The notes: generated by a model not told the origin, from the letters alone. Shown: positions 36,346 to 47,039, counted from the stretch's first letter. The stretch is DNA of 64,000 bases from Sulfurovum sp. (GCF_015493435.1 NZ_WGDD01000032.1:26-64025), one strand, 5' to 3'. Numbers and translations: made by a program.

Positions 36346-36382
36346 TATCTTCTGTCCGGCTCTCCGGTATGCAGGGAATACT

Positions 36383-36772
36383 TCAGTCTTCTTTGAAATA
36401 GAGGGAGAGCTTCTCTGTAAACGTATTGATGTCATAGGGTTTGAGAATAAAATCATTCGCGCCCATTTTTCGGAACTCTATTTCATCGAGTCCGTCAACC
36501 GTAATGATGAGCACCGGCAGGTTATCCATAGATTTATCGGCTCTGATCTCCTGAAGTATTTCCCTGCCGCTTTTCCCTGGCAGGTGCAGATCAAGCAGAA
36601 CCATATCGATCTGGGGCTCTCCCGACGACAGCATCTGCAAGGCTTCGTCTCCGTCATCTGTCGACACGACCGTGGCATTTATGATCCTGGAAAGGATCGT
36701 TTCAATGAGCTGGATATTGAAGGTGTCATCCTCAACGATCAGTATATTCTTGCTTATATTTTTAAATTCCAT
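36383..36772 (-). CDS. Stand-alone response regulator receiver protein
   Basis: ILIVEDD, VLLDLHLPGKSG, GANDFILKP. Confidence 0.9.
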   Translation of the reverse strand: MEFKNISKNILIVEDDTFNIQLIETILSRIINATVVSTDDGDEALQMLSSGEPQIDMVLLDLHLPGKSGREILQEIRADKSMDNLPVLIITVDGLDEIEFRKMGANDFILKPYDINTFTEKLSLYFKED

Positions 36773-37041: not shown

Positions 37042-38874
37042 ATGCTACAACTTTTTCAACAGCTTTTTGGGAAAAAGCCCCATACCATACAGCTTCATAT
37101 CTCTTCAGCCAACGGTTTTCATCTTCGGCCCGTTGCGGAATTCGTCAACACGGCAAAAACATTCGCCTGTGACATCAGTGCCTTGCACCAGCACAAAAGC
37201 GTCAGTGCCAAAAGTGTCAATGCGCTGCTTTCCCTCGGGCTTGAAAAGGGGGACAGCTTTACACTGCTTGCCCGGGGCAAAGATGCCAAGGTGGCCACAG
37301 AAACACTTCAGGCACTCTTTGCACGTTTGATGCAGGAGGACAAAGAGGTCAGCACATTGGGCAAAGAGACCAAAGTCTATGACGGACAAATCATAGAGGG
37401 GGAGATTATTTCCAGAGGCGTGGTCATTGCACCTGTCTGCCGTTATGCGGAACGCGAATTTGCCACAGAAGCCAGGCTGGACTTTTCAGAAGCGCTTGCA
37501 AAAAGTTTGGATGAGCTGGAAATACTTTACCTTGCGCACAAAGAGGAGGAAAACGGCAGTATCTATCTTGCCCAGAAAGCACTTTTGCATGCTATAGCAG
37601 ACGATCTTGACTCATTTGAAACGTTTGAACTGACCATTGCAGAAGCGTCTGCCCATCTTACGGGAAGCAAAATGGCATCCAAGATCATAGACTATCAAGA
37701 TATTCTCCGGCGTGTCAAAAACCATATGGGGATCAAAACAGAAATGATCCTTCCTGAAACTTCCGCCATTCTTTTAGCCGAAGATCTTCTTCCCAGTCAG
37801 ATAACGCAACTTCGCAGCAGCCGTGTTGAGGGGGTGGTACTCAAGGAAACCACCCTGACATCACATACCGCCATTTTGCTGCGTGCTGCGGGTATTCCCT
37901 CGCTTATCGCCGACTACAGTACGGTGGAAGAGCACAGCAGGGTCATTCTTGATGCCAACAGCGGTATGATAGTGTCAAAACCGAGCGAAAAGGATCTTAC
38001 CGAAGCAGAAAAACGCAAAACAGAGGACAGAAAGCAAAGAAACATTGCTGCAAACAAACGTTTTGAAAAAGCACTGACCCGCACACAAAAACAGATTCAT
38101 ATCCTATCCAACGTCACCGATATCGATTCGGCAAAAGAAGCCAGGGCAGAAGGGGCGGAAGGGATTGGACTTTTGAGGACCGAATTTCTTTTTAAAAACA
38201 GAAAACCTTCCCTGGAAGAGCAAACAAAGGCGTACACAGAGATCTTTTCCTGTTTTGAAAATATTACCGTACGTACCCTGGATGTAGGCGGAGACAAAAA
38301 ACTGCCCTATCTCACGCTGCAGGAAGAGGACAACCCCTTCCTCGGCATACGGGGTATACGCCTGTTCAAAACACATCCACAGCTGATGGAAGAGCAGCTG
38401 CATGCTATCTTTCTGGCTGCCAATGGACGCCCGATCAAAGTGATGTTCCCCATGGTCAGCACCGTCGAAGAGTTCATGCACGCCAAAGCGTTTGCTTTCC
38501 GGACAGCGGAAAAATATGACCTTGACATTTCCGCTATGCTTTTCGGCATCATGGTAGAAGTACCTTCCGTACTCTTTTTGATCAAAAATTTCAACAGGGT
38601 CACGGACTTTTACTCCATCGGGACCAACGATCTCACACAATATTTGTTCGCCATAGAAAGAACCCACCCTTCGCTCAAAGTCGATGAACACTCTTCCGTA
38701 GTATTTGACGCCATCAAAACAGTCATTGACCAGGCAGACAAGCCGGTCAGCATCTGCGGAGAACTGGCTGCCGACCCTAAAGCTGTAGGGACACTGCTGA
38801 AGATCGGTATTGAGACACTGAGTGTATCACCCAAACGCATTGCAGCCACCAAAGAGGAGATCAGACATGTTTAG
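37042..38874 (+). CDS. PTS HPr-Enzyme I fusion (PEP-protein phosphotransferase)
   Basis: HPr motifs GFHLRP and AKSVNALLSLG; EI motifs TSHTAIL, GIGLLRTEF, RTLDVGGDK, NPFLGIRGIR, SIGTNDLTQY, ICGELA. Confidence 0.95.
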   Translation: MLQLFQQLFGKKPHTIQLHISSANGFHLRPVAEFVNTAKTFACDISALHQHKSVSAKSVNALLSLGLEKGDSFTLLARGKDAKVATETLQALFARLMQEDKEVSTLGKETKVYDGQIIEGEIISRGVVIAPVCRYAEREFATEARLDFSEALAKSLDELEILYLAHKEEENGSIYLAQKALLHAIADDLDSFETFELTIAEASAHLTGSKMASKIIDYQDILRRVKNHMGIKTEMILPETSAILLAEDLLPSQITQLRSSRVEGVVLKETTLTSHTAILLRAAGIPSLIADYSTVEEHSRVILDANSGMIVSKPSEKDLTEAEKRKTEDRKQRNIAANKRFEKALTRTQKQIHILSNVTDIDSAKEARAEGAEGIGLLRTEFLFKNRKPSLEEQTKAYTEIFSCFENITVRTLDVGGDKKLPYLTLQEEDNPFLGIRGIRLFKTHPQLMEEQLHAIFLAANGRPIKVMFPMVSTVEEFMHAKAFAFRTAEKYDLDISAMLFGIMVEVPSVLFLIKNFNRVTDFYSIGTNDLTQYLFAIERTHPSLKVDEHSSVVFDAIKTVIDQADKPVSICGELAADPKAVGTLLKIGIETLSVSPKRIAATKEEIRHV

Positions 38875-40255
38875 TCTTTTGCAAAAGATCGGCAAGGCAC
38901 TCATGACCCCTATTGCAGTATTGCCGGTTGCGGCACTGCTGCTGCGTCTGGGTTTTGGAGATATTTTCGACGGGCAGACCGCCCTCATTATGAAAAGTGC
39001 CGGAGAGACGGTGTTCGGCAACCTCGATCTGCTTTTTGGTATTGGTATTGCCTACGGACTGGCCAAGAACCACGATGGTGCCGCGGCACTTTCCGGTGCC
39101 ATCGGTGTGCTCATCGCCAAGGCCGTGTATGTCAGCATTGACAAAGATGTCAACATGGGAGTCTTTGTCGGGATCATCATCGGTGTCCTTGCCGGAACGC
39201 TCTACAACCGTTTTCACAATATCAGACTGCCGGAATTTCTCGGTTTTTTCGGAGGCAAACGTTTTGTTCCCATCATTACCTCTATTGCCGCTATATTTGT
39301 AGGTATACTTGCCGGATATTTCTGGCCTTATGTCCAAAACGGCATTGATGCTTTCTCCAATATGATCATCGGGCTTCATGAGTTCGGAACCTTCCTTTAC
39401 GGTGTACTCAACCGTCTGCTCATTCCACTGGGGCTGCATCATATTCTCAACTCGATCTTCTGGTTCCAGCTCGGAGAATATACCTATGTCAAGAACGGTG
39501 TGGAAATGGTAGCCAATGGAGATCTGCACCGTTTCTTTGCCGGAGACCCTACTGCCGGAATCTATATGTCGGGTTTTTATGTCGTGATGATGTTCGGACT
39601 GCCGGCCATGGCCCTGGCGATCTACCTCAACACGCCAAAAGCCTATCGGGTCAAAGCAGGTGCCATTCTTGCAGGGGTAGCTTTCACCTCCTTTTTGACC
39701 GGCATTACGGAACCGATGGAATTTCTTTTCCTCTTTGCTGCCCCGCAGCTTTTTATCCTGCATGCCGTTTTGACAGGCTTGGCACTTGCCACGGCACAAA
39801 TGCTCGATATTCATGCGGGATTCGGTTTTTCTGCAGGCTTTATCGACTATGTCATCAATTATAAACTGGCGACCAATCCCATTTTGATTTTACCGCTGGG
39901 TGCCGTGTTTGCAGTGATCTATTTCGTCTCAAGCTACTACCTGATCAAACTGCTTAAACTCAAAATCATGGAAACAGAACTCGCCGATGATACAAAAAAA
40001 GAGAACCCAAATACCTCTTCGGAAGCGGAAGCATTCATCGCAGCACTGGGAGGCAGAGAGAACATTCTGAACACCGATGCCTGTATCACCCGCCTGCGTA
40101 TGAATGTAAATGACAGCAGTTCCCTGGAAGACAAGGACTTTACAGCCTTGGGAGCCAAAGGGGTCATACGGCCGGACAAAGGCTCGATACAGATCATTCT
40201 GGGAACCAAAGCAGAAAAAGTGGCAGAAAAGATCAGAGATGTGCTGACCCGATAA
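38867..40255 (+). CDS. nagE: PTS N-acetylglucosamine-type EIICB
   Basis: LQKIGKALM.P.AVLP.A, GGKRFVP, LNRLLIPLGLHH, GDLHRFFAGDPTAG, TGITEP.EF; EIIB DACITRLR; start overlaps the EI stop. Confidence 0.9.
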   Translation: MFSLLQKIGKALMTPIAVLPVAALLLRLGFGDIFDGQTALIMKSAGETVFGNLDLLFGIGIAYGLAKNHDGAAALSGAIGVLIAKAVYVSIDKDVNMGVFVGIIIGVLAGTLYNRFHNIRLPEFLGFFGGKRFVPIITSIAAIFVGILAGYFWPYVQNGIDAFSNMIIGLHEFGTFLYGVLNRLLIPLGLHHILNSIFWFQLGEYTYVKNGVEMVANGDLHRFFAGDPTAGIYMSGFYVVMMFGLPAMALAIYLNTPKAYRVKAGAILAGVAFTSFLTGITEPMEFLFLFAAPQLFILHAVLTGLALATAQMLDIHAGFGFSAGFIDYVINYKLATNPILILPLGAVFAVIYFVSSYYLIKLLKLKIMETELADDTKKENPNTSSEAEAFIAALGGRENILNTDACITRLRMNVNDSSSLEDKDFTALGAKGVIRPDKGSIQIILGTKAEKVAEKIRDVLTR

Positions 40256-40315
40256 ACCCCGGGAAATCCTTGTTCTCCTGAAACCAATATGCTGCCTCTT
40301 CCAAAGTAGCGCCGA

Positions 40316-40348
40316 GGTAATACTGGGGTAATAGTCCTATCTTATAAT
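40316..40348 (+). promoter_or_regulatory. Promoter unit 1: direct-repeat operator plus -10 box
   Basis: GGTAAT-ACTGG-GGTAAT-AGTCCTATCT-TATAAT. Confidence 0.7.
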
Positions 40349-40434
40349 TTTGGGGTCGGACAGCAGATATCCGATACAATTATTTTATCCACAGTGATGC
40401 ATAGAACATTGCTGCGGTTTTCAAAGGACGAATC

Positions 40435-40638
40435 ATGAAAAAACTTCTTACATTTGCAAGCATACTTGCACTCACAAGCCTCTTTGCACATGCAAACGAT
40501 ATGGAAAAGGTAAAATCCACCATCACTATGGCGGCACAAGACACCACACAGGCAGCTCCAGGTGAAGAGCCACAGGTTCCGAAAACAAAACAGGACGACA
40601 AGAACAGCAGCGAAAAGGATCAGACAGAAAACAAATAA
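40435..40638 (+). CDS. Small secreted low-complexity protein (67 aa)
   Basis: AAAGGA RBS; signal peptide MKKLLTFASILALTSLFAHA with an AxA site; polar, probably disordered mature part. Confidence 0.75.
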   Translation: MKKLLTFASILALTSLFAHANDMEKVKSTITMAAQDTTQAAPGEEPQVPKTKQDDKNSSEKDQTENK

Positions 40639-40775
40639 CGTACCAAAAACATAACTCCTAAATTTTCCTTATACTCCTTCCCGGCAATATGCCGGGGCAT
40701 ATCATCCTTTTTCCATTTCATCATACCTTGTGATAGATATAGTAAACCAAAAACCGGCTGAAGTACGCTTCTGCA

Positions 40776-40808
40776 GGTAATAATAGAGTCACGGTATTGC
40801 ATTATACT
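40776..40808 (+). promoter_or_regulatory. Promoter unit 2 (second half-site degenerate)
   Basis: GGTAAT-AATAG-AGTCAC-GGTATTGCAT-TATACT, same spacing as units 1, 3 and 4. Confidence 0.55.
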
Positions 40809-40865
40809 TTAGGAGTTCGGATATTACCATATCCGAATCGGACAAACCACTCCAAAGGATAAACA

Positions 40866-40964
40866 ATGCAAGAACTTATTTTAGCCACCGTGCTTATTGC
40901 AATACTGACCCTCCCATTCAGTGTCTTCTTTACTACACTTATCTGGACCTTTCTATATCCGTAG
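40866..40964 (+). CDS. 32-aa single-pass membrane peptide (below the ORF-track cutoff)
   Basis: AAAGGA RBS; MQELILATVLIAILTLPFSVFFTTLIWTFLYP*; has its own promoter upstream. Confidence 0.6.
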   Translation: MQELILATVLIAILTLPFSVFFTTLIWTFLYP

Positions 40965-41000
40965 ACACAAAAAACCATTTATCTTAAATCATAGCAGACA

Positions 41001-41033
41001 GGTAATACTGAGGTAATACTCTTTCACTATAAT
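41001..41033 (+). promoter_or_regulatory. Promoter unit 3
   Basis: GGTAAT-ACTGA-GGTAAT-ACTCTTTCAC-TATAAT. Confidence 0.7.
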
Positions 41034-41035
41034 TT

Positions 41036-41146
41036 GACTGTATCAGATATTTGATACAGTCTTTTTCAAAGGAGTTCACAGAGAACATATAGCCCTCCAT
41101 TAGCCTTACTTCTTAAATTTTACTTACTCCGGCATTTTTGCCGGAG
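41036..41146 (+). ncRNA. Candidate sRNA, or an ORF-less relic of a small gene
   Basis: Follows promoter unit 3. 10-bp hairpin GACTGTATCA/TGATACAGTC, CU-rich middle, end hairpin CTCCGGCA/TGCCGGAG; no start codon after the AAAGGAG. Confidence 0.4.
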
Positions 41147-41242
41147 AGCAGATCGTATTCCACTTTTTTATACATCCCTGCACTTAAATCAAAATTTGCT
41201 ATAATCAATATAATTATTCACTATAATTCACAGGAGAGCCTA

Positions 41243-42046
41243 TTGAAACATTTTGTACTTATTGTTCTTTTGTTCCTTATGAATGGATGTTCAGTCAATG
41301 AACTGTTCCTATTTAATGAAATTAACCGGGTCACCCTTGTTAAATCCACTCCCGAGGTCAAACACTACAGAGCCTATTTTGCAAGAAGTGAGTTGAAACC
41401 GGTATGGAAAAAACAGAAATATCTTTTCCTCTATAATAGGCACAAGCATGATCTCGGCCTTGTACTGCGTCATCACAATACCTATACGCTGTACCATTTT
41501 TCCCACAGAAATCTTCCGGTGGTCAAACTGAAGATCACTTCCCGTCACAGAGAAAGACATATGCTGCATTCTTTTGCCAAGATAGGATACCGCACCGCAG
41601 ACTTGAAAGCACTCGGATACAGGACAAAAGTAGGGTTGCGCCGATACAAAGGGGTTAAAACACTCATGTTCGAAGTAAAAGATTATCACCGCCGGCCAAA
41701 AGAAAAAGAAGCAAATGAAAATCCAACACAGTCAACACAGGGACAGTCTGTTACTCTCATGGATACAGATTCGGAAAATACTCAGATAAAGCCTCTGTAC
41801 CCCTACTATCTGCACTACGCTTCGTCAGCTGAGCTGGACCGTTACCTCAAAGATCCCCAGACCGTCAAAACACTCAGCAGCGGCCAGCTGGCAAGCCTCA
41901 AAACACGTCTCTCCAAACTTCGGAAAGAAACACTTTTAACCGAAGGTTCCCTGGAAACACTGATAGAAGCGTACAAAAAGGACAAAGACCCTGAGATAAA
42001 AAAGCGTATCATGGTCTTGCTGAAACAGCAGCAGTCAAAGAACTAA
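41243..42046 (+). CDS. Hypothetical basic lipoprotein
   Basis: CAGGAG RBS, TTG start, lipobox LMNG-C; TGCTATAAT extended -10 at 41197-41205. Confidence 0.75.
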   Translation: MKHFVLIVLLFLMNGCSVNELFLFNEINRVTLVKSTPEVKHYRAYFARSELKPVWKKQKYLFLYNRHKHDLGLVLRHHNTYTLYHFSHRNLPVVKLKITSRHRERHMLHSFAKIGYRTADLKALGYRTKVGLRRYKGVKTLMFEVKDYHRRPKEKEANENPTQSTQGQSVTLMDTDSENTQIKPLYPYYLHYASSAELDRYLKDPQTVKTLSSGQLASLKTRLSKLRKETLLTEGSLETLIEAYKKDKDPEIKKRIMVLLKQQQSKN

Positions 42047-43089
42047 CCCATAATACGGGAAAGATCCAGGCGGATCTCCGTTCCCTGATGCACCTGGCTT
42101 TTAACTTCTATGCCGATATGCATTTCATCACAAAGTTTTTTCACGATATGCATCCCGATCCCTATGCCTCTCTCCTGTTCCTTGTAATAACGCCTGAATA
42201 CTTTTGAAGGTTCCTCAATACCTTTGCCTGTGTCTTTGATCGACAGTATCGTACCGCTGAACACAATAAAAACTTCTCCTGATGTTTTGTTGTACTTGCC
42301 TGCATTACTCAGGAGATTATCAAGTATCCGTATGAACGCATCTCTGTTTGTTACGATCTTAACTGCCGGAACATCGATGTGATAGGCAACATCCGAATAC
42401 AGTACCTGAAAATAAGAAACCCTTTCCCGGGTCAGCGTCTGAAGTTCGACATATTCTACCTGGGTACGTGCTTCCTGCAAAAAGACTTGTAAATTATTTT
42501 GGAGAGAAAGAATGGTTTCAATATTGTTTTCCACCCTTTGAATCTTCGGATTGGGACCGATCTCTTTTTTAAAAAGCTGAAAATTGATCTTCATCGAGGT
42601 AAGCGGTGTGTTGAAATCATGCAGAATATCTTTTACAAATTCTTCATTCAGACGCAGTGCCCTGTGCAGAGGCAACAGGGCATAAATGGAAAATAAAAAC
42701 GAAATAAGTGCTGCAACCAGGGAATAAAGCAGAAATCTCTTCTCCAGAAGTACTTTTATCTCCTGAATATGTGCTTCGTATTTGGTTCTGGGATAGACCA
42801 CTTTCATGAGAGATTTCTTGACATTCGGCAGTGCAAAATAACTGATGAAATCGTTATCCTTGTACAGAATATTTTCTTCTGTATCTTTTCCCTTGTCGAC
42901 AAAATCCGTTTTCAAGCCTTCACACTGCACCGTATAGGCACATAGTTTCATTTCTATTTCAATCTTTTTTTCAAGCTCGATCTTTTTAACTCTGAATTCA
43001 TACCAGAAATTAATAGCCAGCAGTATTTCGAGCAGTATCAGAAAAATAAAAAAACTTTTGACAAAAGACTCTACCTCATACGTTTTCAA
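42043..43089 (-). CDS. Sensor histidine kinase
   Basis: Two TM helices, H-box ILHDFNTPL, N-box NLLSNAGKY, DTGKGI, G.GIGMHIV. Confidence 0.95.
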   Translation of the reverse strand: MKTYEVESFVKSFFIFLILLEILLAINFWYEFRVKKIELEKKIEIEMKLCAYTVQCEGLKTDFVDKGKDTEENILYKDNDFISYFALPNVKKSLMKVVYPRTKYEAHIQEIKVLLEKRFLLYSLVAALISFLFSIYALLPLHRALRLNEEFVKDILHDFNTPLTSMKINFQLFKKEIGPNPKIQRVENNIETILSLQNNLQVFLQEARTQVEYVELQTLTRERVSYFQVLYSDVAYHIDVPAVKIVTNRDAFIRILDNLLSNAGKYNKTSGEVFIVFSGTILSIKDTGKGIEEPSKVFRRYYKEQERGIGIGMHIVKKLCDEMHIGIEVKSQVHQGTEIRLDLSRIMG

Positions 43090-43711
43090 TCATATACCCC
43101 TGCCCCCTGATATTTCTGATCTCGATACCCAGTTTGTTTTTCAGTTTTGCCAGATTGACCCTTAATGCATTGGCACTCGGCTGTTCAAGCATATCCATGA
43201 GGGTATAGCTGCTGACAATTTTATTTTGTTCCGTGATCAGACTGTGAAAAAGATTATGCTGTACTTCTCCGAGAATAACTGTTTTCCCCTCTTTCTCTAT
43301 GACTCGTGAAACCGGATCATAGCGAATATCGCCAAGAACGATCCATTGGCCCGTTCGTTCATATTTGTTCTTGATACGGATGATCAGTTCTTCGGGATCG
43401 AAAGGTTTTTTAATATAATCTTCCGCACCGATCTCAAACCCTCTGGAAATTGAATTGATATCCGTCAATGCTGTAATATAGATCGCAGGGGTATCATCTC
43501 CCGCTTCTCTGAGTGCGGAAAGGACATCAAAGCCGTCCGTGTCAGGCACATTGATATCTAAAATATAAAGATCATACACCGTAGGAAATGTCAAATCGAA
43601 CACTTCGGTACCGCGATGAGCCTTATCGACATCGTATCCTTCATATTCCAGCAGCTCTTTCAGGCTGTCACACAGTATTTTGTCATCTTCAAGCAATAAT
43701 ATTTTCATCAT
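43076..43711 (-). CDS. OmpR/PhoB-family response regulator
   Basis: LLLEDD, ILDINVP, GAEDYIKKPF, C-terminal winged helix LRVNLAKLK...IRGQGY. Confidence 0.95.
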   Translation of the reverse strand: MMKILLLEDDKILCDSLKELLEYEGYDVDKAHRGTEVFDLTFPTVYDLYILDINVPDTDGFDVLSALREAGDDTPAIYITALTDINSISRGFEIGAEDYIKKPFDPEELIIRIKNKYERTGQWIVLGDIRYDPVSRVIEKEGKTVILGEVQHNLFHSLITEQNKIVSSYTLMDMLEQPSANALRVNLAKLKNKLGIEIRNIRGQGYMIENV

Positions 43712-43718
43712 AGTTCAT

Positions 43719-43751
43719 ACTATATAAGAAATGGCTTACCCAAACATTACC
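43719..43751 (-). promoter_or_regulatory. Promoter unit 4, upstream of the response regulator (likely autoregulatory, leaderless mRNA)
   Basis: Minus strand GGTAAT-GTTTG-GGTAAG-CCATTTCTTA-TATAGT; ATG 7 nt after the -10, with no SD. Confidence 0.65.
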
Positions 43752-43859
43752 TGAAGTTCTGAACCTATTTTTTTTTCTTTGGACTCTTCAAAACAATAAA
43801 AAAAATAACAAGTACAACAGCATAGGCTACGTAATGATAGATATTATCCCCCCGTGGCA

Positions 43860-44330
43860 TTATTTTACCTCCATGATCAGATCGGCACATTTTACGATCT
43901 TTATTGTTTTTTCTATTTCCCTGACGTCACTTTCATCGGAGACAATGACGGGAGTGACTATATCTTTGGCATGTTCGGTAATATAGGGCAGGTCAACCCT
44001 GATCACAGGATCGCCCGCCTTGATCTCGTCACCTTCGTTCGCAAGCCGTTCAAAGCCCTCTCCGTTCAGAGAAACCGTATCAAGACCGATATGGACCATC
44101 ACTTCCAGATCTTTGTCGCTTTTGATACTGTACGCGTGGTTGGTCGTAAATATCTTGGTTATTGTTCCGTCTATGGGAGCACAGAAAGTATTGGAAACCG
44201 GAATGACCGCAACACCGTCACCCACCATTTTAGCGGAAAAGACCTCATCGTCCACTTTTTCTATTTCTATGACCTGACCGTCTACCGGAGAAAGAATCTC
44301 TCTATTTTTTCGTTTTAAAAATCCAAACAC
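43860..44330 (-). CDS. PTS EIIA, glucose/GlcNAc family
   Basis: FSAKMVGDGVAV.P, FTTNHAY, VHIGLDTVSL.GEGF. Confidence 0.93.
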   Translation of the reverse strand: MFGFLKRKNREILSPVDGQVIEIEKVDDEVFSAKMVGDGVAVIPVSNTFCAPIDGTITKIFTTNHAYSIKSDKDLEVMVHIGLDTVSLNGEGFERLANEGDEIKAGDPVIRVDLPYITEHAKDIVTPVIVSDESDVREIEKTIKIVKCADLIMEVK

Positions 44331-44333
44331 TGT

Positions 44334-45461
44334 TTATCCTTTATTGTATTTCACTTCACCCTCGACAATAGTTGTTATGATACTGAAATCTTTATCAAAA
44401 ATGACTATGTCCGCAGCATAACCGTTTTCCAGCTTCCCTAGGTCCAATCCCAGTTTTTTCGCAGGTATGCAGGTGACAGCATTGACTGCCTCAATACGTG
44501 TCATATCGGAAACGTTCGTCATATTCCGAAGGGCCTCATTCAGTTTCAGAACAGAACCGGCCAATGTACCGTCCTGTAAAACAGCTTTGCCGTTTTCAAC
44601 ACTCACCGGCCTTCCTCCCAGATCGTAAGAACCGTTTTGCATACATCCTGCGCGCATAGCATCGGTAATGAGCATCAGTTTGTCACCTTTTATCCGGTGG
44701 GTCAGTTTCAGGACAGACGGATGTACATGCACCCTATCCGCAATAATGTCACAGGTAATATCTGAATCGAACACGGCACCGGTGATCCCCGGTTCTCTGT
44801 GAAAGCAGGGGTTCATTGCGTTAAAAAGATGTGTCGCATGGGTAATGCCCCATGCAAAACTTTCTTTACTCTGCTCAAAACTTGCATTGCTGTGCCCGAT
44901 ACTTAAAATAATATGGGGGAATTTCCCGGAAAGCATCCGGATAAATTTTTCCGCTCCTGCTATTTCCGGAGCCATCGTGATCATCCTGATCTGGTCGAGA
45001 TACGGCGCGATGAGTTCAACGCTGGGTTCACGAATATACTGTTTATCCTGTGCACCGTGTTTTTCCGGGTTCAAAAAAGGCCCTTCAAGGTGAACACCTA
45101 TGACCCTGGCACCCTTTACAAGGGAGGCGTGCTGTTTTACATTTTGTAAAGCATTCTCAATAGCAGATGTTGACATCGTCATGGTAGTAGCAAGGAAAGA
45201 AGTAGTACCCGTCTGAACCAGGGTTTCAGATATGGTCTGAAGAGCCTCCGGTGTAGCATCCATCACATCAGCACCGCCTGAACCATGTATATGCAGGTCT
45301 ATGAAACCCGCAGAGACATACTGCCCTTTGGCATCGATCACTTCGATGCCGCTTAGATTCCGCATATCACACACCGCAACGATCGTTTTATCAAAAAGAA
45401 GGATCTTCTCTTCCGTGATTTGATCGTTGACAATCAGTTTACCATTTACAATCGCTTTGAT
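44334..45461 (-). CDS. nagA: N-acetylglucosamine-6-phosphate deacetylase; apparent ATC start
   Basis: GFIDLHIHG, HLEGPFL, GHSNA, THLFNAM, LITDAM, LAGSVL; the frame extends upstream to SD-preceded ATC AAA GCG ATT GTA AAT GGT (xKAIVNG). Confidence 0.9.
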   Translation of the reverse strand: MKAIVNGKLIVNDQITEEKILLFDKTIVAVCDMRNLSGIEVIDAKGQYVSAGFIDLHIHGSGGADVMDATPEALQTISETLVQTGTTSFLATTMTMSTSAIENALQNVKQHASLVKGARVIGVHLEGPFLNPEKHGAQDKQYIREPSVELIAPYLDQIRMITMAPEIAGAEKFIRMLSGKFPHIILSIGHSNASFEQSKESFAWGITHATHLFNAMNPCFHREPGITGAVFDSDITCDIIADRVHVHPSVLKLTHRIKGDKLMLITDAMRAGCMQNGSYDLGGRPVSVENGKAVLQDGTLAGSVLKLNEALRNMTNVSDMTRIEAVNAVTCIPAKKLGLDLGKLENGYAADIVIFDKDFSIITTIVEGEVKYNKG

Positions 45462-45500
45462 GTTTCTTCCTTTTTCACCGGGCGGATATAGGGCGCCGTC

Positions 45501-47039
45501 CTATGCATTCAAATGCTCTTTTAGCACGCGTTTGAGCACTTTGCCTGTAGCATTTTTGGGCAGTTCATCAATAATATGTATCTGTTTTGGAATCTTGAAA
45601 TTTGCAAGATGCTCCCTCATGTGTGCCTTCAGGCCCGACTCGCTGTAACTGTCTTTTTCTGCTTCAAGCTCAATATAGGCAACAGGTATTTCGCCGCTTT
45701 TCTCGTCTTTCATACCAATCACCGCAGAAGCGGAAACTCCGTCAAAAGCATCGATAATCTCTTCAATTTCACGCGGATAAATATTGATCCCTTTGGAAAT
45801 AATAAGATCTTTTTTCCTATCTACGATAAAAAGAAAACCTTCTTCATCCATGTATCCCATATCTCCTGTCAAAAGCCAGTCATTTACAATGGTTTCCCTG
45901 GTTGCTTCGGGACGCTTGAAATACCCCTGCATAACATGGTCGCCTTTGACAATAATATCTCCGATCTGCCCGTGAGGAAGCTCGTTCATTTCTTCATCAA
46001 CGATTTTGATCTCATACCCGTAGGCTGCCGTACCTACTGAACCTGCTTTCTGTTTTTTCAGTGTGTTCACGCAGACAACAGGACTTGCCTCACTCAGACC
46101 ATAGCCTTCAAGCAGTTTGGCCCTTTTGAACTTTTTTGCCATAGCATCAAGGGTTTTAGGCTGTAAGGCAGATGCCCCGGAAATAAAGGCACGTATATTG
46201 TTGAACCATAAAAAATACCACGGAAGCTTTGCTTTTGCCAGCGCATTGTACACATTGGGTATACCAAAGAAAAGTGTAACCCGTTTTGTCAGTACCTGTT
46301 TAAAAATATTGGAGAAAGGCTGCAGTGATTTTATGATCACCATACTTCCCCCGACATACAGAGGCATGATCACCCCGACCGTAAAGGTAAAAGAGTGGAA
46401 CATGGGCAGAAATACAATAACACGGTCTTTAGGTTTTACTTTGATCAGTTTTCTTGCAAACTCAATATTGGAAAGCAGGTTTTTATTGCTGAGCATCGCC
46501 CCTTTTGGTTTTCCGGTCGTGCCGGAAGTATAGATCAATACTGCCGTATCGTCAAGACCTCTCACAACATGGGCCGTCTCGGCAGATGTTGCCAAAGCTT
46601 CTGAAAAACTGACATTTTTTTCATCCAGCGGGGGTGAAGCACCTTCCCAGACAAGCAGTTGGCATTGAACCTGTGCATTCGACCTGTTCACAACTTCTGC
46701 ATGGACGGTTGAAGCAATCAGTACCGTACTCTCGCTGTCCTTGAGAATATAACTGAGTTCTTCCTCTTTGAGGAAGGTATTGACAGGGACAGTGATCGCA
46801 CCTATTTTGGATACAGCAAATACAGTATAGATGAATTCCGGAGAATTGCGCAGGAAGAGTGCGACCTTGTCGCCTTCCCTGATGCCTTTTTGAGACAAAA
46901 AGGCGGCGAACCTGTCAATCTTTTCAAGCAGGACACCATACGTGATCTTTTCATCATCAACAAAAAGGGCGACCTTGCGTCTGTGTCTTTGTGCCTGAGC
47001 GAACAGAAACTCATAAAAATTACTGTAGGGGTACTCCAT
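45501..47039 (-). CDS. fadD: Long-chain fatty acid--CoA ligase (AMP-binding family)
   Basis: YTSGTTGKPKGA, EGYGLSEASP, TGDMGY, DRKKD, NATGKVLK; start set at MEYPYS. Confidence 0.85.
   Translation of the reverse strand: MEYPYSNFYEFLFAQAQRHRRKVALFVDDEKITYGVLLEKIDRFAAFLSQKGIREGDKVALFLRNSPEFIYTVFAVSKIGAITVPVNTFLKEEELSYILKDSESTVLIASTVHAEVVNRSNAQVQCQLLVWEGASPPLDEKNVSFSEALATSAETAHVVRGLDDTAVLIYTSGTTGKPKGAMLSNKNLLSNIEFARKLIKVKPKDRVIVFLPMFHSFTFTVGVIMPLYVGGSMVIIKSLQPFSNIFKQVLTKRVTLFFGIPNVYNALAKAKLPWYFLWFNNIRAFISGASALQPKTLDAMAKKFKRAKLLEGYGLSEASPVVCVNTLKKQKAGSVGTAAYGYEIKIVDEEMNELPHGQIGDIIVKGDHVMQGYFKRPEATRETIVNDWLLTGDMGYMDEEGFLFIVDRKKDLIISKGINIYPREIEEIIDAFDGVSASAVIGMKDEKSGEIPVAYIELEAEKDSYSESGLKAHMREHLANFKIPKQIHIIDELPKNATGKVLKRVLKEHLNA

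What the first reader, a model, noticed from the sequence alone, without database searches (positions are those of the whole stretch)
40316..43751. Four identically spaced operator-promoters define a compact regulon for the neighbouring OmpR-family two-component system
Seen in sequence: GGTAAT-N5-GGTAAT-N10-TATAAT at 40316-40348 and 41001-41033. GGTAAT-N5-AGTCAC-N10-TATACT at 40776-40808. GGTAAT-N5-GGTAAG-N10-TATAGT on the minus strand at 43751-43719, directly upstream of the response regulator. Established: OmpR/PhoB regulators bind direct repeats with an 11-bp period that replace the -35 region, and they often autoregulate. Inference: this regulator activates itself and three tiny units (67-aa secreted peptide, 32-aa membrane peptide, ORF-less RNA). 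That would be a signalling module whose local outputs are all micro-products that automatic annotation largely misses. I know of no described Campylobacterota regulator with this box.
Basis: partly seen in the sequence, partly recalled or inferred. Interest (0 to 1): 0.85.

Follow-up and report, generated by a model that had tools for sequence, protein, structure and literature searches.

The report
Conserved regulator boxes at four promoters
Four promoters flanking a Sulfurovum two-component system carry the same tandem GGTAAT box exactly 10 bp upstream of their -10 element, and dozens of related genomes keep this layout, so it is very probably the site through which the neighbouring OmpR-type regulator controls itself and a few small exported products: a well-supported but ordinary kind of regulon.

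Summary
The four claimed sites are the four best matches to box-N10-(-10) in the whole 64-kb window (3 hits at <=3 mismatches against 0.04 expected). S1 and S3 are perfect, S4 is good, and S2 has only one good half-site.

Comparative genomics supports the main interpretation.
- 19 of 27 Sulfurovum orthologues of the regulator carry the box 37-39 nt before their start codon. The -10 lies 5-7 nt from the ATG and there is no Shine-Dalgarno sequence, so the mRNA is probably leaderless.
- Sulfurimonas orthologues (45-52% identity) keep the same geometry.
- The 67-aa secreted protein keeps box, -10 and a 5' hairpin in nine other loci.
- Across 510 kb of related loci, 55 of 78 loose boxes have a TANNNT exactly 10 nt downstream.

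The "regulon of micro-products only" claim is only partly right.
- Relatives place the same box before larger exported proteins: a 461-aa peptidoglycan-binding protein, ~140-aa periplasmic proteins and multihaem cytochromes.
- The 32-aa ORF was found only in this species.
- S3 sits where relatives encode a 66-80-aa secreted protein that is missing here.

No binding or transcript data exist. This is a new member of a known kind (PhoB-style class II activation with autoregulation), of moderate interest.

The parts
40316..40332 (+). S1 box: GGTAAT-ACTGG-GGTAAT, a tandem direct repeat with an 11-bp period
   Evidence: PWM score 26.1 bits. No SNP in four strain variants. Equivalent boxes precede p67 homologues in L086, L010, L022, L025, L024, L018, L207 and L208.
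40343..40348 (+). S1 -10 hexamer TATAAT, 10 nt after the box; no -35 and no TG extension
40355..40375 (+). S1 5'-proximal hairpin GTCGGA...TCCGAT; weak in this genome
   Evidence: -6.4 kcal/mol, z -0.8. The homologous position in relatives has TTCGGAT..ATCCGAA. L018 shows two compensatory pairs.
40435..40638 (+). p67: 67-aa protein with an N-terminal signal peptide (..LFAHA|ND) and a charged low-complexity mature part
   Evidence: The profile search found 22 clusters, all unnamed or hypothetical except one weak hit named 'Skp family chaperone' by JGI. No Pfam or NCBIfam match. Of 4 strain SNPs, 3 are at third codon positions and 2 are synonymous.
40679..40697 (+). Hairpin CCCGGCA..TGCCGGG after p67; terminator-like, but the T-run is 11 nt away
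   Evidence: -13.6 kcal/mol, z -2.85.
40776..40792 (+). S2 box: GGTAAT-AATAG-AGTCAC; good distal half-site, poor proximal half-site
   Evidence: 4 mismatches. PWM score 10.9 bits, below the shuffle-maximum mean. Matches the relaxed pattern. No SNP in strain variants.
40803..40808 (+). S2 -10 hexamer TATACT
40815..40838 (+). S2 5'-proximal hairpin GTTCGGATAT-TACC-ATATCCGAAT
   Evidence: -12.3 kcal/mol, z -2.4. The stem sequence is the same as in the p67 leaders of other species, and the CACTCCAAAGGAT block is shared with L086. Strain SNP C40834T keeps the pair as G.U.
40866..40964 (+). p32: 32-aa hydrophobic ORF with the SD AAAGGA
   Evidence: Found only in the same species (L001) among all fetched loci. 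Strain SNPs: 3 synonymous, plus A12S and I26V, with no frameshift.
41001..41017 (+). S3 box: GGTAAT-ACTGA-GGTAAT
   Evidence: PWM score 27.3 bits. Strain variants carry T41017C (GGTAAC, a tolerated form) and a change in the spacer between half-sites.
41028..41033 (+). S3 -10 hexamer TATAAT
41036..41066 (+). 11-bp hairpin plus T5. An intrinsic-terminator-like element placed to end the S2/p32 unit; it overlaps the expected S3 start
   Evidence: terminator scan. -14.6 kcal/mol, z -4.65. Strain SNP T41051C converts a G.U pair to G-C.
41127..41146 (+). Second hairpin CTCCGGCA-TTTT-TGCCGGAG, the probable 3' end of the ORF-less S3 unit
   Evidence: The compensatory double change C41133T plus G41140A occurs on one contig of run X10. 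The flanks are alignable with the p67 3' region.
41197..41205 (+). Extended -10 TGCTATAAT, the lipoprotein gene's own promoter, which has no box
   Evidence: T(G)nTATAMT is conserved 35-45 nt upstream of the lipoprotein start in most loci.
41243..42046 (+). 267-aa lipoprotein (TTG start, ..LMNGC|S lipobox), convergent with the kinase gene and downstream of S1-S3
   Evidence: Conserved next to the kinase in about 25 loci. No Pfam or PDB relatives.
42043..43089 (-). Sensor histidine kinase, 348 aa, overlapping the regulator gene by 14 nt. By eye: two hydrophobic segments and a periplasmic part of about 90 aa
   Evidence: HisKA plus HATPase_c. Below every NCBIfam equivalog cut-off.
43076..43711 (-). 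OmpR/PhoB-family response regulator, 211 aa
   Evidence: Response_reg 91 bits; Trans_reg_C 24.3 bits, just under the 26.2 cut-off. Full-length matches to the PmrA and CopR models and to PDB 1kgs. The recognition helix NALRVNLAKLKNKLG is conserved in box-bearing orthologues.
43719..43724 (-). S4 -10 hexamer TATAGT, 7 nt before the regulator's ATG. There is no SD and an in-frame TGA lies 2 codons upstream
43735..43751 (-). S4 box: GGTAAT-GTTTG-GGTAAG, the autoregulatory site
   Evidence: PWM score 17.3 bits. An orthologous box is present in 19 of 27 Sulfurovum loci by the strict pattern, and 3-4 more are near matches.
43765..43890 (-). Context only: small membrane ORF (probably the 31-aa form starting at 43860) between EIIA and S4; not under a box

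Best explanation
The four sites are sigma-70-type promoters that lack a -35 element. In its place each has a tandem direct repeat (G)GTAAY-N6-(G)GTAAY, with an 11-bp period, ending exactly 10 bp upstream of the -10 hexamer.

This is the geometry of a PhoB-style class II activator site. The most likely binder is a head-to-tail dimer of the phosphorylated OmpR/PhoB-type regulator encoded next door (43076-43711).

The inferred circuit is as follows. The kinase senses an unknown envelope or periplasmic cue. The phosphorylated regulator then switches on four units:
(i) its own regulator-kinase operon, from S4, as a leaderless mRNA;
(ii) p67, a small secreted protein, from S1; its mRNA begins with a stem-loop;
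(iii) less certainly, the S2 unit (32-aa hydrophobic ORF);
(iv) the S3 unit, which has no ORF here and ends at a hairpin that is maintained by compensatory change.

Shown: the sequence pattern, its statistics, its conservation and its fixed geometry across genera.
Inferred: who binds, the sign of regulation, the transcription starts, the leaderless start and the role of the hairpins.
For: - Statistics in the window.
- Fixed spacing: in 510 kb of related loci, 55 of 78 loose boxes have a TANNNT exactly 10 nt downstream, and the next most frequent spacing has 12.
- Autoregulatory site: 19 of 27 Sulfurovum orthologues match the strict pattern 37-39 nt before the ATG, with the -10 lying 5-7 nt from the ATG.
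- Twelve Sulfurimonas-type orthologues (45-52% identity) have TTAACACTTCGCTAAYAC-N10-TATAAT-N6-ATG.
- Target sites cluster beside the two-component genes in most loci.
- The p67 unit keeps box, -10, hairpin and SD in L086, L010, L022, L025, L024, L018, L207 and L208.
- The regulator is full-length OmpR/PhoB-like, and its recognition helix is conserved wherever the box is conserved.
- No -35 hexamer or TG extension is present at the four sites, whereas the neighbouring lipoprotein promoter has TGnTATAAT.
- In strain variants only one SNP falls in the 54 nt of S1-S3 half-sites and -10 hexamers, and it keeps the consensus.
Against: - There is no experimental evidence of any kind. No RNA-seq run holds the locus, and no binding data exist.
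- The assignment to the neighbouring regulator rests on adjacency and co-conservation. These genomes encode other OmpR-type regulators.
- Four Sulfurovum orthologues (L014, L015, L017, L019) and the whole 64-70%-identity group lack a recognisable box upstream of the regulator. In L207, p67 keeps its box although the two-component genes are not adjacent.
- S2 is not significant by sequence alone.
- The S3 start would fall inside a terminator-like hairpin, so its output is unclear.
- A box overlapping the -35 position could equally mediate repression.
Confidence: 0.7

Rival explanations
1. The boxes are real regulatory sites, but a different transcription factor binds them (another OmpR-family regulator or an unrelated protein). 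Their proximity to this two-component system would then be only a consequence of conserved gene order inside the PTS cluster.
For: The box-bearing p67 unit persists in L207, where the two-component genes are not adjacent. Some orthologues lack the autoregulatory box. Nothing tests binding.
Against: The box sits directly upstream of the regulator gene itself in two families (Sulfurovum and Sulfurimonas types), even though the neighbouring genes are completely different. In the 64-70% and Sulfurimonas groups the strongest boxes lie immediately after the kinase gene. The recognition helix and the box change together between the two groups.
Confidence: 0.1
2. The neighbouring regulator binds the boxes but represses. 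It would occlude the polymerase at near-consensus -10 promoters, which are constitutive in Campylobacterota because these organisms rarely use a -35 element.
For: S1 and S3 have perfect TATAAT hexamers. The box covers roughly -39 to -23, where a bound protein could also block polymerase. The statement that Campylobacterota promoters generally lack a -35 comes from established knowledge and was not tested here.
Against: A box exactly 10 bp upstream of the -10, as tandem direct repeats, is the classic activating pho-box arrangement (established knowledge). The four promoters lack the TG extension that the apparently constitutive lipoprotein promoter next door has. The rigid N10 spacing in 55 of 78 sites fits a protein-polymerase contact better than simple occlusion.
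Confidence: 0.12
3. S2 and S3 are decayed or duplicated copies of small-protein units and are not working regulon members. On this view p32 is not a real gene, the S3 RNA has no function, and only S1 and S4 matter.
For: - p32 has no homologue in any other locus.
- S2 has a poor proximal half-site.
- The S2 leader resembles the p67 leaders of other species.
- At the S3 position relatives encode p66b, which is absent here, although an orphan SD AAAGGAG remains.
- The S3 3' region aligns with the p67 3' region.
- nhmmer finds no relative of the S3 unit.
Against: - The S3 box and -10 are perfect.
- The S3 3' hairpin shows a compensatory C-G to T-A change between strains, and its 64-nt interior has no SNP on the X10 contig, where about 3 would be expected.
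- The p32 SNPs are 3 synonymous plus 2 conservative, with no frameshift.
- ORF-less or directly lipoprotein-proximal box promoters also occur in L088, L024 and L210.
Confidence: 0.35
4. The similarity of the four sites is only shared ancestry, i.e. recent duplication of a promoter cassette, with no common regulator.
For: S1 and S3 are identical over 18 of 19 nt, and their 3' regions are alignable.
Against: Outside the half-sites and the -10 the four sites differ. The same pattern is kept at orthologous positions over deep divergence, while the spacers and flanks change freely.
Confidence: 0.03

Closest known systems
PhoB and the pho box of Escherichia coli (class II activation by an OmpR/PhoB regulator)
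   Same: Two direct-repeat half-sites with an 11-bp period replace the -35 element and end 10 bp upstream of the -10. The regulator-kinase operon is itself a target. The regulator combines a receiver domain with a winged helix.
   Different: The half-site is GTAAY, not CTGTCAT. There are no phosphate-related genes nearby. The regulator scores 86-99 bits against the two PhoB models, whose cut-offs are 270-296. The regulator mRNA appears to be leaderless.
SulRS of Sulfurimonas hydrogeniphila (PMC12936845)
   Same: An OmpR-family two-component system of deep-sea vent Campylobacterota. Its footprinted site contains two direct repeats upstream of the -10 (-51 to -17), and it also binds its own promoter.
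   Different: SulR recognises TTACA repeats within TTTAYATTTAKKAGWTACAMTTA and controls sox genes, and sulRS lies next to soxABXY1Z1. The present system and its Sulfurimonas orthologues have no sox neighbours, a different box, and exported proteins of unknown function as targets.
CpxAR-CpxP, ZraSR-ZraP and PhoQP-MgrB: two-component systems whose nearby or principal target is a small periplasmic or membrane protein that feeds back on the kinase
   Same: The most conserved local targets are small exported proteins encoded beside the system. These are p67 and p66b in Sulfurovum and a ~140-aa helical periplasmic protein directly after the kinase gene in relatives. All recognisable targets carry signal peptides.
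   Different: No sequence relationship was detected: there are no Pfam hits, including none to LTXXQ/CpxP-type families. Feedback on the kinase is pure inference. This comparison rests on established knowledge, not on a test made here.
Campylobacter jejuni DccRS and CprRS regulons (recalled from memory; no open paper describing them was found)
   Same: OmpR-type systems of Campylobacterota with direct-repeat boxes. They autoregulate, and their targets are mostly small periplasmic or membrane proteins of unknown function. As I recall it, the CprR half-site ([G/C]TAAA[C/T]) shares the GTAA core.
   Different: Orthology was not tested. No C. jejuni or Helicobacter genome appeared among the 80 best loci, whose identity went down to 44%. 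As I recall it, the DccR box (TTCAC repeats) is different.

Membership tests
OmpR/PhoB-family two-component system | The regulator has a receiver domain with the acidic pocket and phospho-acceptor Asp | tested here: met
   Response_reg scores 91.4 bits over the full domain. The motifs LLLEDD, LYILDINVPD, ITALTD and KKPF are visible in the alignment.
OmpR/PhoB-family two-component system | [quoted passage not shown] | tested here: met
   Pfam Trans_reg_C alone is marginal: 24.3 bits against a 26.2 cut-off. However, the PmrA, CopR and PhoB NCBIfam models and PDB 1kgs align end to end, residues 2-208, at E 1e-28 to 1e-31. Several orthologues carry a precomputed PF00486 hit.
OmpR/PhoB-family two-component system | Cognate HisKA/HATPase_c kinase in the same operon | tested here: met
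   HisKA 27 bits and HATPase_c 56 bits. The genes overlap by 14 nt. The regulator-kinase pair is conserved in nearly all of the 80 loci.
Named equivalogs (PmrA, CusR/CopR, PhoB, OmpR, CpxR, QseB and others) | Score above NCBIfam's curated equivalog cut-off | tested here: not met
   The best score is 107.6 bits, for PmrA, against a cut-off of 330. All 25 listed models fall far below their cut-offs.
Pho-box-type class II activator site | Two or more direct-repeat half-sites about one helical turn (11 bp) apart | tested here: met
   GGTAAT-N5-GGTAAT at S1, S3 and S4. The consensus from 44 distinct sites in other genomes is AAGGTAATACTTAGGTAATAT.
Pho-box-type class II activator site | The box replaces the -35 and sits at a fixed distance (10 bp) from the -10 | tested here: met
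   The spacing is N10 at all four window sites and in 55 of 78 boxes in related loci. No -35 was detected.
Pho-box-type class II activator site | The phosphorylated regulator binds the box and activates transcription | not testable with these tools
   This needs EMSA or footprinting and expression data. No RNA runs were found.
SulRS (Sulfurimonas sox regulator) | Adjacent to soxABXY1Z1; TTACA direct repeats in the target promoters | tested here: not met
   There are no sox genes near the window locus or near the Sulfurimonas orthologue L050. The box is GTAAY with an 11-bp period, against TTTAYATTTAKKAGWTACAMTTA for SulR.
Leaderless mRNA (regulator gene) | Transcription starts at or within a few nt of the start codon, with no SD | tested here: inconclusive
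   The -10 ends 5-7 nt before the ATG in the 24 GTDB Sulfurovum loci and 6 nt before it in Sulfurimonas loci. There is no purine-rich SD, and an in-frame stop lies 2 codons upstream in the window. The start site itself has not been mapped.
Regulator-controlled small RNA (S3 unit) | A discrete non-coding transcript with its own promoter and terminator, conserved or structured | tested here: inconclusive
   For: a perfect promoter, no ORF, and a 3' hairpin with a compensatory change between strains. Against: no Rfam hit and no homologue in other loci. There are no transcript data.

The most novel reading that the evidence does not exclude
The small exported products are not end effectors. They would be part of the signalling loop itself.
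- p67 (and p66b or p32) would act in the periplasm or membrane on the kinase's ~90-aa sensor domain. They could act as feedback modulators, like CpxP or MgrB, or as a self-produced cue.
- The S3 unit would be a regulator-dependent small RNA.
- Read-through from S1-S3 across the lipoprotein gene would run antisense into the convergent, overlapping kinase-regulator operon.

Together these would make a self-contained micro-protein/RNA feedback module, conserved in vent Sulfurovum and embedded in a PTS gene cluster.
Probability: 0.2. Interest if true: 0.6.

Novelty: new member of a known kind. Interest (0 to 1): 0.4.

Why it matters
It gives a concrete, testable cis-element and first regulon sketch for a two-component system that is conserved across Sulfurovum and Sulfurimonas. 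These bacteria dominate hydrothermal-vent communities, and almost nothing is known about their gene regulation.

The box can now be used to annotate targets in hundreds of MAGs. It flags several families of small exported proteins that annotation pipelines miss or leave unnamed (p67, p66b, the ~140-aa periplasmic protein). It also predicts a conserved leaderless regulator mRNA.

It does not reveal a new regulatory principle.

Tried and rejected
- Rfam scan of 38000-46000 at E<=1: no match.
- RNA-seq: no RNA run lists the locus, so transcription starts could not be checked.
- Single-sequence search with p67 found only itself. A profile of seven homologues was needed to find the family.
- The lipoprotein profile found nothing credible in PDB or Pfam.
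- nhmmer with the S1 leader and the S2 and S3 units against all fetched loci: nothing significant. The idea that S3 is a conserved sRNA family is therefore unsupported. BLAST between units finds only the box and a 13-nt leader block, so paralogy of the units is a hint and not a result.
- Literature searches for the C. jejuni CprR and DccR boxes returned no usable open paper. Those comparisons rest on memory.
- I tested whether the system is SulRS and rejected that.
About half the hits are chance or unrelated matches (human gut, hot spring and high-GC contigs, and satellite repeats), so only vent-type contigs were used.
- The loose box alone is barely enriched (78 observed against 57 +/- 8 in shuffles). 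Only the composite with the -10 is informative.
- A possible weak box at the lipoprotein promoter (GTTAGC-N5-ATTAAC-N10-TATACT in L004, L023, L084 and L086) is not present in the window, and I dropped it.

Full report
**1. The observation**

The region was read directly.
- S1 40316-40348(+): GGTAATACTGGGGTAAT-N10-TATAAT
- S2 40776-40808(+): GGTAATAATAGAGTCAC-N10-TATACT
- S3 41001-41033(+): GGTAATACTGAGGTAAT-N10-TATAAT
- S4 43751-43719(-): GGTAATGTTTGGGTAAG-N10-TATAGT

A mismatch scan of both strands of the 64-kb window for the composite pattern ranks these four first, with 0, 0, 2 and 4 mismatches. One other site, 26286(-), ties with S2 at 4 mismatches. With up to three mismatches there are three matches against 0.04 expected from dinucleotide shuffles.

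The sigma-70 scan reports none of the four, so none has a recognisable -35.

A weight matrix built only from sites in other genomes scores S3 27.3, S1 26.1, S4 17.3 and S2 10.9 bits. The best score in shuffled windows averages 13.3. Only its exact spacing, its position, and the fact that it is one mismatch from the tolerated GTAAC form rescue it (a pattern written after the fact).

**2. The genes**

The window matches a Sulfurovum MAG from a hydrothermal vent.
- 43076-43711(-) encodes a 211-aa OmpR/PhoB-type regulator. It has a strong receiver domain and a marginal Trans_reg_C hit, but it aligns end to end with the PmrA, CopR and PhoB models and with PDB 1kgs. It lies far below every equivalog cut-off.
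- 42043-43089(-) encodes a HisKA/HATPase_c kinase that overlaps the regulator gene by 14 nt.
- A 267-aa lipoprotein gene (41243-42046) converges on the kinase gene with a 4-nt overlap.
- The whole block sits inside a PTS/nagA cluster (EI-HPr, EIICB, EIIA, amidohydrolase). This arrangement is kept in about 25 Sulfurovum species.

**3. Conservation upstream of the regulator**

I fetched 80 loci encoding relatives of the regulator from GTDB species representatives, and more from metagenomes.

- Among 27 loci with a regulator at least 72% identical, 19 match the strict pattern [GT]TAAY-N6-[GT]TAA[TCG]-N10-TANNNT. The box starts 37-39 nt before the ATG.
- Three or four more are near matches, and four have lost the box.
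- In the 24 GTDB Sulfurovum loci the -10 ends 5-7 nt before the ATG. No Shine-Dalgarno sequence is present. In the window an in-frame TGA lies two codons upstream.
- I conclude that the regulator mRNA is most probably leaderless. This is an inference, because the start site has not been mapped.
- Twelve Sulfurimonas-type orthologues (45-52% identity) show the same geometry with slightly different half-sites: TTAACACTTCGCTAAYAC-N10-TATAAT-N6-ATG.
- The recognition helix is NALRVNLAKLKNKLG in the Sulfurovum group and TALRVAITKLKQTTG in the Sulfurimonas group, so it changes together with the box.

**4. Conservation at target sites**

Across 510 kb of Sulfurovum-type loci, 78 loose boxes occur, against 57 +/- 8 in shuffles. 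However, 55 of the 78 have a TANNNT exactly 10 nt downstream, and the next most frequent spacing has 12. The composite is the functional unit.

*The p67 unit.* It is conserved as a whole in L086, L010, L022, L025, L024, L018, L207 and L208. In each, the box starts at or just after the EIICB stop codon and is followed by:
- a -10 hexamer;
- 7 nt, then a stem-loop TTCGGAT..ATCCGAA;
- the SD AAAGGA;
- ATGAAAAAA.

L018 has two compensatory pairs in that stem. A profile search finds 22 p67 clusters, nearly all unnamed or hypothetical.

*The second box in relatives.* It drives p66b, a 66-80-aa secreted protein with a QFTVTHIMLD motif (L010, L020, L022, L025, L086, L208, L125).

*Other genes behind a box:*
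- a 461-aa protein with a peptidoglycan-binding domain (L007, L013, L014, L021, L084, L085, L206);
- a secreted protein of 134-149 aa;
- a ~140-aa periplasmic protein placed directly after the kinase gene, histidine-rich in the 64-70% group and glutamine-rich in Sulfurimonas;
- a DUF2202 protein;
- an outer-membrane-like TSP_3 protein;
- lipoproteins and multihaem cytochromes.

Almost every recognisable target has a signal peptide, although two families behind a box in the metagenome scan (about 93 and 141-147 aa; L118, L144, L145, L181, L195, L199) show no obvious one. The regulon is directed at the envelope. Its membership varies by lineage, and it is not restricted to tiny products.

**5. 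The individual window units**

*S1/p67* is the solid one.

*S2* has a strong 5' hairpin (-12.3 kcal/mol, z -2.4). The stem, and the following CACTCCAAAGGAT block, match the p67 leaders of other species, which suggests a duplicated leader. The 32-aa ORF was found only in this species. Its five strain SNPs are three synonymous plus A12S and I26V, with no frameshift. That is weakly compatible with a real gene.

*S3* is perfect as a promoter, but its expected start lies inside an 11-bp hairpin followed by T5 (-14.6 kcal/mol, z -4.65). That hairpin is best placed to terminate the S2 unit.

Downstream of S3 there is an orphan SD (AAAGGAG) with no start codon, no ORF, and a second hairpin at 41127-41146. 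On the X10 strain contig this second hairpin carries the compensatory pair C41133T/G41140A, and T41051C strengthens the first hairpin.

The S3 unit occupies the p66b position of relatives, and its 3' part aligns with the p67 3' region. It has no relatives elsewhere and no Rfam hit. Box promoters with no ORF behind them also occur in L088, L024 and L210.

I cannot decide whether S3 is a remnant, a small RNA or an inducible upstream promoter for the lipoprotein gene. That gene has its own conserved extended -10, TGCTATAAT at 41197-41205.

*Strain variants.* Only one SNP falls in the 54 nt of S1-S3 half-sites and -10 hexamers. It changes GGTAAT to the tolerated GGTAAC.

**6. Mechanism**

The best-supported reading is PhoB-style class II activation. 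A head-to-tail dimer of the phosphorylated neighbouring regulator binds the two GTAAY half-sites centred near -36 and -25. It substitutes for the missing -35 and recruits polymerase to the -10.

- The regulator-kinase operon is autoregulated from S4.
- p67 is the conserved local output.
- The 5'-terminal stem-loops probably stabilise the short mRNAs. This is an inference from what is generally known about 5' stem-loops. A DNA operator for a second protein is not excluded, although the L018 covariation favours RNA.

The signal is unknown.

The alternatives are scored in the rivals section: a different binder, repression instead of activation, S2 and S3 being relics, or mere duplication.

**7. 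Comparison with what is known**

The architecture equals the pho box (half-site period, N10 to the -10, autoregulation), but the protein is not PhoB or any other named equivalog.

The only characterised two-component system of vent Campylobacterota that I found, SulRS, is a different system. It uses TTACA repeats and has a sox context, and the Sulfurimonas orthologues of the present regulator have no sox neighbours.

Small exported proteins adjacent to the system recall CpxP, ZraP and MgrB, but no sequence relation was found.

The C. jejuni DccRS and CprRS regulons look similar in style. That comparison rests on memory only.

**8. Verdict**

This is a real, conserved regulator box with fixed promoter geometry, very probably belonging to the neighbouring OmpR-type system. 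It is a new member of a known kind.

- The reading 'micro-product-only compact regulon' is an over-reading of one genome's local arrangement.
- Interest is moderate. The box is useful for annotating vent Campylobacterota and for choosing experiments, but it is not surprising in principle.
- The most novel reading still open is a feedback module of micro-proteins and a small RNA acting on the kinase. I give it a probability of about 0.2.

Noticed in passing
window 43765-43890 (-), short form from 43860: A small one-helix membrane ORF (..VAYAVVLVIFFIVLKSPKKKK). Its ATG overlaps the EIIA stop codon (TAATG), and a GGAGG lies 8 nt upstream. It is conserved between EIIA and the regulator gene in about 25 Sulfurovum loci, is not under a box, and is called as a gene in only some records.
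   Followed up: partly
window 42043-42046: The kinase and lipoprotein genes converge and their stop codons overlap by 4 nt, which leaves no room for terminators. Read-through from S1-S3 or from the lipoprotein promoter would therefore be antisense to the kinase-regulator operon. The tight convergence is also seen in L001, L086 and L208.
   Followed up: no
window 41243-42046 (+): The lipoprotein belongs to a family of 257-369-aa proteins that always sits next to this kinase in Sulfurovum. It has conserved RAYF, RRYKGVKT and GSLE.LI.AYK motifs and no Pfam, NCBIfam or PDB relatives. It may be an accessory protein of the sensor.
   Followed up: partly
window 37042-40255 and 43860-45374: A complete sugar PTS (EI-HPr fusion, EIICB, EIIA) plus a NagA-like amidohydrolase. 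The two-component system is embedded in it across the genus Sulfurovum. No box was found in front of any PTS gene.
   Followed up: partly
window 43711-43724 (-) and orthologous loci: The regulator gene appears to be expressed as a leaderless mRNA: the -10 lies 5-7 nt from the ATG and there is no SD. This is conserved from Sulfurovum to Sulfurimonas orthologues.
   Followed up: yes
window 41127-41146 and 41036-41061: Between close strains in vent metagenomes, the first hairpin shows a compensatory C-G to T-A change (41133/41140), and the second gains a G.U to G-C change (41051).
   Followed up: yes
L030-L037, L163, L050 (gene directly after the kinase): A ~140-aa periplasmic protein family with the motif PxER..L(M/V)NE(I/F)K...(M/L)xA(E/Q)(Q/E)R...LRAxM and a His-, Gln- or Gly-rich tail. 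It is box-driven and has no Pfam family. It looks like the ancestral local target of this two-component family.
   Followed up: partly
L088 765-985: Another vent contig with a perfect box and -10, followed by about 180 nt without an ORF and a strong terminator. It lies downstream of a cytochrome-c protein with an LTPEQ motif. It may be a regulator-controlled small RNA.
   Followed up: partly
L093, L120, L123, L133, L134, L154, L159, L166, L191, L197, L203 (metagenome scan): An unrelated group of contigs (GC 0.46-0.51) sharing a conserved block of about 80 nt that begins ATAGGTAATACTAGAGTAATACT..ATATAGTTCTTGGGAGGAGAATCCCC. Its origin and function were not examined.
   Followed up: no
L087, L136, L150 (also L100, L102, L157): High-GC contigs with GGGTAATACTGNGGTAACGG-N..-GTATATT about 85 nt upstream of a ~390-aa secreted, porin-like protein. 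This may be an analogous direct-repeat box in an unrelated phylum.
   Followed up: no
window, about 36380-36770 (L001 16940-17329): A stand-alone 129-aa receiver-domain protein is encoded a few kb away, next to an Lcl_C-domain gene and an AAA ATPase gene. Its relation to this system is unknown.
   Followed up: no
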